Below are positions 61,767-64,000 of a DNA stretch of 64,000 nucleotides, one piece after another; position 1 is the stretch's first letter, and each line of letters opens with the position of its first letter. The DNA comes from Promethearchaeota archaeon. Its GTDB lineage: Archaea > Asgardarchaeota > Lokiarchaeia > Sigyniarchaeales > SOKP01. A model generated the notes under the pieces. It worked only from the letters and a program-made list of their open reading frames with translations, did not search any database and had not been told where the DNA came from. The translations under genes and the position numbers were made by a program. The DNA is taken from positions 35,400-99,399 of the forward strand of contig JAEOSU010000067.1 in assembly GCA_016840165.1 (NCBI GenBank), written 5' to 3'.

Positions 61767-62758
61767 TCGCGTGGATAATATTCATAATGCCCATGAAGGT
61801 TATGCGGTATTACATTTCAATCCTTGTTCGCGTGGATAATATTCATAATGCCCATGAAGGTTATGCGGTATTACATTTCAATCCTTGTTTTAGTGGATAT
61901 TTCTATGCTATTTTAATAGAACTACATTTTAAAAATAATAGAACTTCTTTGTAGTTTCAATCCTTGTTTTAGTGGATATTTCTATGCTATAAAAGAGGAT
62001 GAGGATGACCGAGATTAAAATATCGTTTGTAGTTTCAATCCTTGTTTTAGTGGATATTTCTATGCTATATTTATGGAAGTTCAGATTTGTCATTTTGGAA
62101 AACTGAGTTTCAATCCTTGTTTTAGTGGATATTTCTATGCTATCTTTTTTGGATTTCGTTGTTGGAAGATGTGTTTGCCTGTTTCAATCCTTGTTCACGT
62201 GGATAATATTAGAATTCCTTATGAACAATTTAAACAAGTAGTTTTCAATCCTTGTTCGCGTGGATAATATGAACCTGAAGCTCTTTTAGGGCTTGTAGTT
62301 GGCTTTCAATCCTTGTTCGCGTGGATAATATCATCTAACGCAAATTTCGCTATTTCTGCTTCTCTTTCAATCCTTGTTCGCGTGGATAATATGAATCCAC
62401 AAACGGGAGAAGATACAGGATTACCTTTCAATCCTTGTTCGCGTGGATAATATGCATCTAAAATGTTTACTAATCCAAATGACGCCTTTCAATCCTTGTT
62501 CGCGTGGATAATATTATCGCTTTTTGCTATATTTCTCAATAATATGCTTTCAATCCTTGTTCGCGTGGATAATATAAATGATACCCAATAATTTGTCCTA
62601 GACCTCCTTTTCAATCCTTGTTCGCGTGGATAATATGTAAGAGATTTCATTATGATTCGTTAATATTACTTTCAATCCTTGTTCGCGTGGATAATATGAC
62701 AGAATTTATCAGGATAAAGTTGAATGGGACTTTCAATCCTTGTTCGCGTGGATAATAT
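61767..62758 (-). CRISPR. CRISPR array 1 (chimeric): 11 full and 1 partial type-B repeats, 4 type-A repeats, 15 spacers
   Basis: B core (+ strand) TTTCAATCCTTGTTCGCGTGGATAATAT at 61815, 62182 (CACG variant, preceded by G), 62243, 62304, 62365, 62426, 62487, 62548, 62609, 62670, 62731. A repeat GTTTCAATCCTTGTTTTAGTGGATATTTCTATGCTAT at 61876 (lacking the G), 61954, 62032, 62107. Minus strand inferred from ATTGAAAC/G 3' ends and the decayed left end. Confidence 0.97.
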
Positions 62759-63066
62759 ACTAATTTCTTCCTATTTCATGATACTTACATGAAAATTTGT
62801 TGCCTATAGTATATAGAACGCTTCTTCTATATAAAAATAACTAGTAAACCGATCTAATTTTGATTCCATAATAAAATATGATTATATTAAATATTATTAT
62901 AATTTTTAAAATACGGTCTCAAAAAGATAGAAAAATTTAGAAATTTACTAAAAAATATTAGATAAGTTAATTGGCGTTTTTATAGAAGTTATTCTTAATC
63001 CTTATATAGTGTCTCATCGAGATTATGCCAATCTCGATGATGGCTTGAATTTTTTTAACCACTTGA
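62759..63066 (-). promoter_or_regulatory. AT-rich putative leader of array 1
   Basis: 308-bp non-coding AT-rich stretch next to the homogeneous end of array 1; TATA-like TTTATATA on the minus strand at 62828-62835. Confidence 0.6.
63014..63040. repeat. Perfect 11-bp hairpin between the two arrays
   Basis: TCATCGAGATT-atgcc-AATCTCGATGA. Confidence 0.6.
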
Positions 63067-64000
63067 GTTTCAATCCTTGTTTTAATGGATACTCTTATGC
63101 TATATACTGTAAGGGCATGATACTTGATTTTACTCGTAATGTTTCAATCCTTGTTTTAATGGATACTCTTATGTTATAATAAAAAAGTATATACAAAAAA
63201 GGAGTGATAAAAAAAGTTTCAATCCTTGTTGTAGTGGATATTTCTATGCTATCTTCAGAAGTAATGAGATATGAAAGACAATTATCTAGTTTCAATCCTT
63301 GTTTTAGTGGATATTTCTATGCTATCATGGAAATAGTGGATATAGTTATTACTGATAATATAGAGTTTCAATCCTTGTTTTAGTGGATATTTCTATGCTA
63401 TTTCCTACTTCCGAATTTAATATGATGTGTGGTTATAAGTTTCAATCCTTGTTGTAGTGGATATTTCTATGCTATATGGGCTTTTTGGGCAGCTAAGCGT
63501 TATTATTCTCCTACGTTTCAATCCTTGTTTTAGTGGATATTTCTATGCTATCGCCCTTAAAGCCCCCTTACAGATTATTAAAGCCTTAGGTTTCAATCCT
63601 TGTTGTAGTGGATATTTCTATGCTATAGGAATAGAATAAAATGATAATTGAAAACAAAACATCTGTTTCAATCCTTGTTTTAGTGGATATTTCTATGCTA
63701 TTCATCTACCTTGGACTATCATTGATGAATCTAAAGAAGGGTTTCAATCCTTGTTTTAGTGGATATTTCTATGCTATTTTGTTGTAAATATGTTTTCAAT
63801 AATGATTTATCTTCATGTTTCAATCCTTGTTTTAGTGGATATTTCTATGCTATTTACTAAAAAATTCCGCTATCGATGATATTTTAAATGGGTTTCAATC
63901 CTTGTTTTAGTGGATATTTCTATGCTATCATTCCTATAGTAGAGAGGGTTATAAGAGAAAGAAAGTTTCAATCCTTGTTTTAGTGGATATTTCTATGCTA
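63067..64000 (-). CRISPR. CRISPR array 2: at least 13 type-A 37-bp repeats and 12 spacers of 36-39 bp; runs off the window
   Basis: Repeats at 63067, 63141, 63216, 63289, 63365, 63439, 63515, 63590, 63665, 63741, 63817, 63892 and 63965; minus-strand repeat ATAGCATAGAAATATCCACTAAAACAAGGATTGAAAC; divergent copies at the left (trailer) end. Confidence 0.98.

What the first reader, a model, noticed from the sequence alone, without database searches (positions are those of the whole stretch)
62210..62758. Repeat B: a shortened relative of the 37-bp repeat with type I-E-like 28+33 geometry
Seen: on the minus strand B (ATATTATCCACGCGAACAAGGATTGAAA-R) aligns without gaps to the last 29 nt of A (GAAATATCCACTAAAACAAGGATTGAAAC), keeping the ATCC/GGAT stem and ATTGAAA handle. 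The period is exactly 61 bp. The base after the 28-bp core is G in 7 of 9 leader-side units, A in 2, and T in the duplicated trailer spacer. Known: a 61-bp period with 28 duplicated bases, a 33-bp insert and a PAM-derived G is the signature of type I-E Cas1-Cas2, whereas 37-bp ATTGAAAC repeats with variable spacers go with I-B/III-type systems. Inference: an I-E-like integrase writes into a repeat still readable by the A-type Cas6, i.e. a hybrid adaptation/processing system.
Basis: partly seen in the sequence, partly recalled or inferred. Interest (0 to 1): 0.78.

Follow-up and report, generated by a model that had tools for sequence, protein, structure and literature searches.

The report
RNA-targeting CRISPR array, borrowed spacer writer
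In an Asgard archaeon, a CRISPR memory array of the RNA-targeting (type III-A) kind has a shortened repeat and leader that look fitted to the unrelated type I-E spacer-capture enzymes, a specific and testable case of a borrowing already known in outline.

Summary
Observation confirmed: nine identical 28-bp B repeats, exact 61-bp period, next base G7/A2. B is the last 28 nt of the 37-bp repeat A (22/28 identical). A four-spacer A block is spliced in through reciprocal hybrid repeats. The genome is Lokiarchaeia; the contig ends inside the array and no cas gene is assembled. In relatives B arrays flank cas1-less type III-A operons with Cas6b. Across 158 B inserts, 125 are 33 nt, 41% start with G (13% background), 35% end in C, and they are pyrimidine-rich like A spacers, unlike I-E spacers. 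B leaders end like leaders of true Asgard I-E arrays (AGT 18/22 vs 8/10; A 0/9). Cas1e occurs in Lokiarchaeia and in the same metagenomes. Best reading (0.7): unprimed Cas1e-Cas2e writes B in trans, a Cas4-type module writes A, and one Cas6b/Csm reads both. Not shown: no protospacer or PAM, no MAG holds both B and Cas1e, and B lacks most of the second I-E anchor. Borrowed type I adaptation is published (Vink 2021; IV-A3, Benz 2023), and this scan noted the same element in another genome (e1-5573232). New variant of a known kind.

The parts
62210..62758 (-). B array: nine identical 28-bp repeats with 33-nt inserts (61-bp period); first insert base G in 7, A in 2
62759..62845 (-). B leader, about 85 bp conserved among B arrays; TATA-like T-run/TATA at 62827-62837; leader end GGAAGAAATTAGT (62759-62771) resembles Asgard I-E leader ends
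   Evidence: promoter role inferred
62181..62209 (-). Hybrid repeat: B-type 5' part with the terminal C of A, followed by a 37-nt A-type spacer (leader-side crossover)
61912..62180 (-). Inserted A block: three full 37-bp A repeats (62107-62143, 62032-62068, 61954-61990) and four spacers of 37, 38, 41 and 42 nt
61876..61911 (-). Hybrid repeat: A body lacking the terminal C, followed by a B-type 33-nt insert (trailer-side crossover)
61767..61875 (-). B trailer: 33-nt insert (61843-61875), B repeat (61815-61842), exact duplicate insert (61782-61814), truncated B repeat (61767-61781)
63067..64000 (-). Upstream A array: 11 A repeats plus 2 variant terminal A' repeats, spacers 36-39 nt; cut by the contig end. 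The terminal A' repeat and its trailer are shared with YT1_007 (L001)
62846..63066 (-). AT-rich spacer region between the end of the A array and the conserved B leader

Best explanation
B is the short-format array of a Lokiarchaeia type III-A (Csm, Cas6b) CRISPR system that has no cas1/cas2 of its own. B arose from the 37-bp Cas6b-type repeat A by loss of its 5' 8 nt, placement behind an I-E-type leader end (…AGT) and gain of the I-E CCACRC motif. The Asgard Cas1e-Cas2e integrase, acting in trans and unprimed, duplicates 28 bp and inserts 33 bp whose terminal base comes from the prespacer (inferred). The invariant AACAAGGATTGA block keeps the transcript cleavable by the same Cas6b that cuts A (inferred). 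Csm needs no PAM, so non-G, slipped and flipped inserts persist, and selection favours inserts antisense to mRNA. A arrays at the same loci are probably written by a Cas4-type (I-B-like) module, and A and B units recombine through the shared 3' core. Shown: geometry, gene context in relatives, leader and base statistics. Inferred: the enzymes that act on B.
For: B arrays flank cas10-csm2-5, csm6-like and cas6b operons without cas1 in L001/L040, L003/L163, L007, L160 and L165/166, and partial operons in L162. Cas1e passes the TIGR03638 cut-off in 5 of 161 class genomes, with 3 more partial copies; these sit in I-E operons with 61-bp arrays. About 50 protein clusters are >=68% identical to the Lokiarchaeia Cas1e query, the named ones Asgard. 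The same datasets (SDBV01, JGI 3300005253/3300005663, ERZ23486227) hold both B-III-A loci and I-E loci. Leader ends in AGT: B 18/22, I-E 8/10, A 0/9; most B leaders score at or above the 99.9th genomic percentile of an I-E 12-nt matrix. B inserts are 33 nt in 125/158 (60/83 before length filtering), I-E in 165/169; A spacers are 36-42 nt. First base G in 65/158 vs 13% background (p=3e-18), C depleted; AG starts 13/35 (p=2e-4); last base C in 55/158 (p=4e-6); no such bias in A spacers. This matches unprimed E. coli I-E acquisition: 36.7% AAG vs 97% primed, with flipping and slippage (PMC4027179); true Asgard I-E arrays have G in 161/169. Repeat positions 11-13 match I-E in B but not in A. B spacers are pyrimidine-rich like A (0.437 vs 0.428 purine, p=0.64) and unlike I-E (0.547, p=2e-16). 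Reciprocal A/B hybrid repeats occur in the window and in L001. The array at the I-B locus of YT1_007 is 37-bp, has variable spacers and an A-like leader end.
Against: No protospacer was found, so the PAM and target templating are untested. The own genome has no cas gene by tblastn or HMM. The three held MAGs with B (G000, G155=G151, G090) show no Cas1e, and none of the 8 Cas1e MAGs shows B. B keeps only the GG of the second inverted-repeat anchor, yet both anchors are essential in E. coli (PMC5039180). Overall identity of B to I-E repeats (10-13/28) is barely above that of A (9-11/28). G-first and C-last are independent (OR 1.0) rather than exclusive. The nine spacers of this window show no antisense bias (purine 0.50). 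Loci are related and several come from the same datasets, so the p-values overstate.
Confidence: 0.7

Rival explanations
1. B is written by another, unidentified fixed-ruler integrase (a III-A-dedicated Cas1-Cas2 that is unassembled, or the I-B Cas1-Cas2-Cas4 module behaving differently on a short repeat); the likeness to I-E is convergence.
For: YT1_007 carries B yet only an I-B cas1-cas2-cas4. No genome holds both B and Cas1e. The second anchor is missing from B.
Against: No cas1 lies beside any III-A locus examined. Arrays at other Lokiarchaeia Cas1 loci have variable 65-81-bp periods and different leader ends. The AGT leader end, 33-nt ruler, G bias and AG slippage all coincide with I-E.
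Confidence: 0.13
2. B was written by Cas1e in an ancestor or former host, but in this genome it is an orphan, non-growing relic that only decays and recombines.
For: No cas genes in a 99.7%-complete MAG. Degenerate or solitary B copies without cas exist in G090 and G151 C9. The trailer is rearranged.
Against: The contig ends inside the A array, so the operon may simply be unassembled. The nine leader-side repeats are identical, with unique spacers not shared with any other locus examined, which suggests recent activity.
Confidence: 0.1
3. B is simply a divergent conventional type I-E array, read by Cas6e and Cascade.
For: 61-bp period, I-E-like leader end and G bias.
Against: No strong hairpin (-1.8 vs -11.7 kcal/mol). 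Wherever cas genes adjoin B they are III-A/Cas6b, never cse genes. I-E loci carry their own canonical repeat. Only 41% G, and strand bias opposite to I-E.
Confidence: 0.05
4. The B/A mixture is an assembly artefact of a repeat-rich contig end.
For: The array lies at a contig end, the MAG has 6.3% contamination, and reads could not be checked (one search failed).
Against: The same repeats, leader, A'-trailer junction and A/B hybrids occur in independent assemblies from another genus and other samples.
Confidence: 0.02

Closest known systems
Type III arrays filled in trans by type I adaptation modules (Vink et al. 2021, PMC8482600; category with distinct repeats and shared acquisition: I-B+III 15 genomes, I-E+III 3 genomes)
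   Same: Type III effector without its own cas1/cas2; spacers carry the signature of a type I integrase; coding-strand (mRNA) targeting bias.
   Different: Vink inferred sharing from PAMs. Here the repeat itself is a truncated Cas6b-type 37-mer recast to 28+33 format, and one III-A lineage uses both an I-B-type (A) and an I-E-type (B) array, which recombine. No PAM could be read here.
Type IV-A3 arrays adapted by host Cas1e-Cas2e in trans (Pinilla-Redondo 2020, PMC7038947; Benz 2023, 10.1101/2023.06.23.546257)
   Same: No own adaptation genes; I-E-like leader; 33-bp inserts with a PAM-derived G; Cas1e supplied from another locus.
   Different: IV-A3 uses an I-E-like repeat, a Cas6e-related nuclease and an AAG-requiring DNA-targeting effector, and co-occurs significantly with I-E. 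B keeps a Cas6b-type 3' half, feeds a PAM-independent RNA-targeting Csm, and co-occurrence in one genome is not shown.
Type I-E CRISPR array (E. coli; Swarts 2012 PMC3338789; Goren 2016 PMC5039180; Shmakov 2014 PMC4027179) and the Asgard I-E loci found here
   Same: 28-bp duplication, 33-bp insert, variable G-biased 29th base, CC at 8-9 and GG at 20-21, similar leader end.
   Different: No 7-bp GC hairpin, second anchor mostly lost, no Cascade/Cas3 beside it, G only 41% against 95%, opposite strand bias.
Cas6b-processed 37-nt repeats (Methanococcus maripaludis-type Cas6b, PDB 4Z7K/4Z7L) with type III-A Csm
   Same: The operon's Cas6 is Cas6b (PF17955/PF17262; 4Z7K E=1e-40); A is a 37-nt ATTGAAAC-ending repeat; B keeps its 3' block invariant.
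   Different: B lacks the 5' 8 nt, and the last base of its predicted 8-nt 5' tag is spacer-derived. Cleavage of B is untested.

Membership tests
[quoted passage not shown] | cas3, cse1, cse2, cas7, cas5, cas6e with the array | tested here: not met
   No I-E gene in G000 by tblastn; B arrays adjoin III-A genes where cas genes are present
[quoted passage not shown] | 28-bp duplication plus 33-bp insert (61-bp period) | tested here: met
   9/9 in window; 125/158 across loci
[quoted passage not shown] | Repeat with strong GC inverted repeats (both ruler anchors; Cas6e hairpin) | tested here: not met
   4-bp stem, -1.8 vs -11.7 kcal/mol; CCACRC kept, second anchor reduced to GG
[quoted passage not shown] | 29th base templated by the target, with an AAG-type PAM | tested here: inconclusive
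   Uncopied and G-biased (p=3e-18), AG slippage (p=2e-4), but no protospacer found
Type III-A CRISPR-Cas system | cas10/csm1, csm2, csm3, csm4, csm5, cas6 next to the array | tested here: inconclusive
   Met in relatives with an identical repeat and near-identical leader; not assembled in G000, whose contig ends inside the array
Type III-A CRISPR-Cas system | Spacers biased towards complementarity to mRNA | tested here: inconclusive
   Indirect proxy only: B spacers pyrimidine-rich 113 vs 35, like A and unlike I-E; the nine in this window are unbiased
Type III-A CRISPR-Cas system | Cas6 cleavage of the repeat and loading of crRNA into Csm | not testable with these tools
   Needs small-RNA sequencing or in vitro cleavage
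Adaptation-less system served in trans by Cas1e-Cas2e (IV-A3-like) | No cas1/cas2 at the locus | tested here: met
   None in L040, L003, L007, L037 or L159-L166
Adaptation-less system served in trans by Cas1e-Cas2e (IV-A3-like) | Leader end shared with I-E arrays of the same lineage | tested here: met
   AGT 18/22 B, 8/10 I-E, 0/9 A; matrix scores; likeness is limited to the last 12-16 nt
Adaptation-less system served in trans by Cas1e-Cas2e (IV-A3-like) | Co-occurrence with Cas1e in the same genome | tested here: inconclusive
   0 of 3 B-bearing MAGs have Cas1e; same metagenomes hold both; MAGs are fragmentary at CRISPR loci
Adaptation-less system served in trans by Cas1e-Cas2e (IV-A3-like) | Cas1e-Cas2e-dependent array expansion shown by experiment | not testable with these tools
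   Needs an acquisition assay

The most novel reading that the evidence does not exclude
One Asgard type III-A lineage keeps two interchangeable array formats that share a Cas6b site but are written by two unrelated integrases (Cas4-type for A, Cas1e-Cas2e for B). A repeat was remodelled so that the Cas6 code and the Cas1 code are separable, and the B arrays are a natural record of unprimed, PAM-unselected I-E acquisition by an integrase that tolerates loss of the second anchor.
Probability: 0.5. Interest if true: 0.68.

Novelty: new variant of a known kind. Interest (0 to 1): 0.52.

Why it matters
How cas1-less type III systems get spacers is mostly inferred from PAM statistics. Here the repeat and leader appear to record a switch of integrase. 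A, B and the native Asgard I-E repeat form a natural three-way comparison that separates what Cas6b needs (positions 15-26) from what Cas1e-Cas2e needs (leader AGT, CCACRC, GG). This makes repeat-integrase co-evolution directly testable with four proteins and three oligos. It also shows that subtype calls from array geometry can mislead: a 61-bp period here belongs to III-A. It documents an Asgard I-E clade that I did not find described in the papers searched.

Tried and rejected
Protospacer searches all failed: class-wide BLAST of the arrays, GenBank phages, six two-spacer union patterns in IMG/VR, own genome and all loci, and spacer-spacer overlaps. Best hits were 24-26/33 in AT-rich sequence, one of them in an apparent housekeeping gene (L154), and were rejected as chance. 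B repeats were not found in viral contigs. Assemblies of L159-L165 were not held, so their Cas1e content is unknown. 'B is a true half-and-half I-E/A chimera' was weakened: B is 22/28 like A and only 10-13/28 like I-E. 'G-first and C-last are exclusive, one PAM end per insert' was not supported: they are independent, and power is low. A Cas6b tree needs two changes for the B label and does not show a single origin; only 9 rows were labelled. The Cas6b-RNA structure paper was not held, so the Cas6b recognition site is inferred from conservation only.

Full report
Observation. On the minus strand the window ends in a composite CRISPR array. From the contig end: 11 copies of the 37-bp repeat A and two variant A' copies with 36-39-nt spacers (63067-64000); about 310 bp of AT-rich DNA; then nine identical 28-bp B repeats at an exact 61-bp period (62210-62758). 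The base after the B core reads G,G,A,G,G,G,G,G,A. Next come a hybrid repeat (B 5' part with the terminal C of A, 62181-62209), four A-type spacers of 37, 38, 41 and 42 nt with three full A repeats, a reciprocal hybrid (A body without its C, then a 33-nt insert), one B repeat, an exact duplicate of that insert, and a truncated B. B matches the 28 nt before the last C of A at 22/28 and keeps the weak ATCC/GGAT stem. The two hybrids are what a double crossover inside the shared 3' core would leave (inference).

Host and context. The only other species genome with the exact B repeat is Promethearchaeota (Lokiarchaeia) YT1_007. The own MAG (99.7% complete, 105 contigs) has no cas gene by HMM or by tblastn with 21 Cas queries, but its contig ends inside the A array. 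In YT1_007 an operon of cas10, csm2-csm5, a csm6-like gene and cas6 lies between a divergent A array and a B array with a nearly identical leader, and A/B hybrids recur. The Cas6 is Cas6b (Pfam; PDB 4Z7K, E=1e-40). Following B repeats and Cas6b relatives gave more III-A loci without cas1: B-only (L003/L163, L007, L160, L162, L165/166, several with 3-5 B arrays each), A-only (Loki_b31, L159, L161) and mixed (YT1_007; the window has both arrays but no assembled operon). B is therefore a family of type III-A arrays, not a local oddity.

Is there an I-E integrase to borrow? Yes, in the lineage. Five of 161 class genomes have Cas1e above the curated cut-off, three more have partial copies, in I-E operons with canonical hairpin repeats and 61-bp periods. 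About 50 protein clusters are at least 68% identical to the Lokiarchaeia Cas1e query, and those that carry names are Asgard. The datasets that hold B-type III-A loci also hold I-E loci (SDBV01, JGI 3300005253 and 3300005663, ERZ23486227). However, none of the three held MAGs with B shows Cas1e, none of the eight with Cas1e shows B, and the only Cas1 of YT1_007 is an I-B cas1-cas2-cas4 module. Co-occurrence in one cell is not shown.

Signatures of the writer. (a) Leader. B leaders end in AGT in 18/22 cases (typically AAAAAAGTAGT), Asgard I-E leaders in 8/10 (typically AAAAAAGAAGT), A leaders in 0/9. Most B leaders score at or above the 99.9th genomic percentile of a 12-nt I-E matrix; the window's own scores 7.1 against a 99.9th percentile of 7.5, and falls in the top 0.02%. 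The likeness covers only the last 12-16 nt. A leaders resemble the leader of the 37-bp, variable-spacer array at the I-B locus. (b) Length. 125 of 158 non-redundant B inserts are 33 nt (60/83 before length filtering), against 165/169 for I-E and 36-42 nt for A. (c) Ends. G starts 41% of B inserts against 13% background (p=3e-18) and C is depleted, so this base is not A's copied C. A-starting inserts are followed by G in 13/35 (p=2e-4), and C ends 35% (p=4e-6). A spacers show none of this, and true I-E arrays have G in 161/169. In E. coli the last repeat base is PAM-derived (PMC3338789). Unprimed Cas1-Cas2 gives 36.7% AAG spacers against 97% when primed, with slippage and flipping (PMC4027179). 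B fits the unprimed pattern. (d) Repeat. Positions 11-13 match I-E in B (overlap 0.86, 0.74, 0.93) but not in A (0.41, 0.47, 0.11), giving CCACRC where E. coli has its first ruler anchor. Positions 15-26 are nearly invariant in A and B and mostly unlike I-E. Against this, B keeps only the GG of the second anchor, which is essential in E. coli (PMC5039180), and overall identity to I-E is barely higher than that of A.

B spacers are pyrimidine-rich (113 vs 35), like A spacers (55 vs 12) and opposite to I-E spacers (106 purine-rich vs 56); B vs I-E p=2e-16, B vs A p=0.64. This is an indirect proxy for antisense orientation, as expected under type III selection (PMC8482600). The nine spacers in this window are unbiased. 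Loci are related, so all p-values overstate.

Mechanism. Most likely (0.7), Cas1e-Cas2e encoded elsewhere in the cell integrates unprimed at the AGT/repeat junction, copies 28 bp and adds 33 bp. Cas6b cuts within the conserved 3' block to give an ATTGAAAN tag, and Csm uses the crRNA without a PAM, so non-G and flipped inserts survive. A arrays are written by a Cas4-type module, and the two formats exchange blocks by recombination. Geometry, context and statistics are shown; enzyme assignments are inferred. Rivals are an unknown fixed-ruler integrase (0.13), an orphan relic in this genome (0.10), a conventional I-E array (0.05) and an artefact (0.02).

Comparison and novelty. Type III arrays filled by type I modules in trans are published, including three I-E plus III genomes (PMC8482600), and Cas1e acquisition in trans is shown by experiment for IV-A3. 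B works like those cases, but it is not a member of type I-E (no Cascade, no hairpin) and is best filed as a III-A array. I found no paper describing a Cas6b-type repeat recast to I-E geometry, dual-format III-A loci, or I-E systems in Asgard archaea; the library is incomplete. This scan noted the same element in another genome with the same reading (e1-5573232); that is an AI note, seen after my tests, and not independent support. Verdict: real, a new variant of a known kind, interest 0.52.

Noticed in passing
window:15646-54288 (-): A single ORF of 12,880 aa occupies most of the window, a few kb from the array.
   Followed up: no
window:58233-60490: DUF4238 and HEPN_AbiV genes lie just beyond the array trailer, suggesting a small defence island.
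   Followed up: no
L091:11559-12704; L173:11008-12150; L177; L179: Asgard Cas2e proteins are 370-390 aa fusions; some hit RNase_H_2 (PF13482, DEDDh-like), others have no match beyond the Cas2 domain.
   Followed up: partly
L167:6655-6682; L168:4036-4063; L171:546-573: A single degenerate I-E repeat sits between cas6e and cas1e, like a stand-alone regulatory repeat.
   Followed up: no
L039:6914-6936 (G151 C9): A solitary B repeat far from any cas gene in YT1_007.
   Followed up: partly
L145 (G090:C44:12387-12534): A degenerate three-unit B array with no cas genes within the 20 kb fetched.
   Followed up: partly
L007:6000-7700; L160:10790-11500; L162:1550-2500: Some B arrays are mosaics of many repeat variants, and one spacer is shared between two oppositely oriented arrays of L160, pointing to frequent inter-array recombination.
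   Followed up: partly
L160, L162, L165: Three to five separate B arrays, each with its own leader copy, are interleaved with the III-A genes (before cas10, after cas6b, after csm6).
   Followed up: partly
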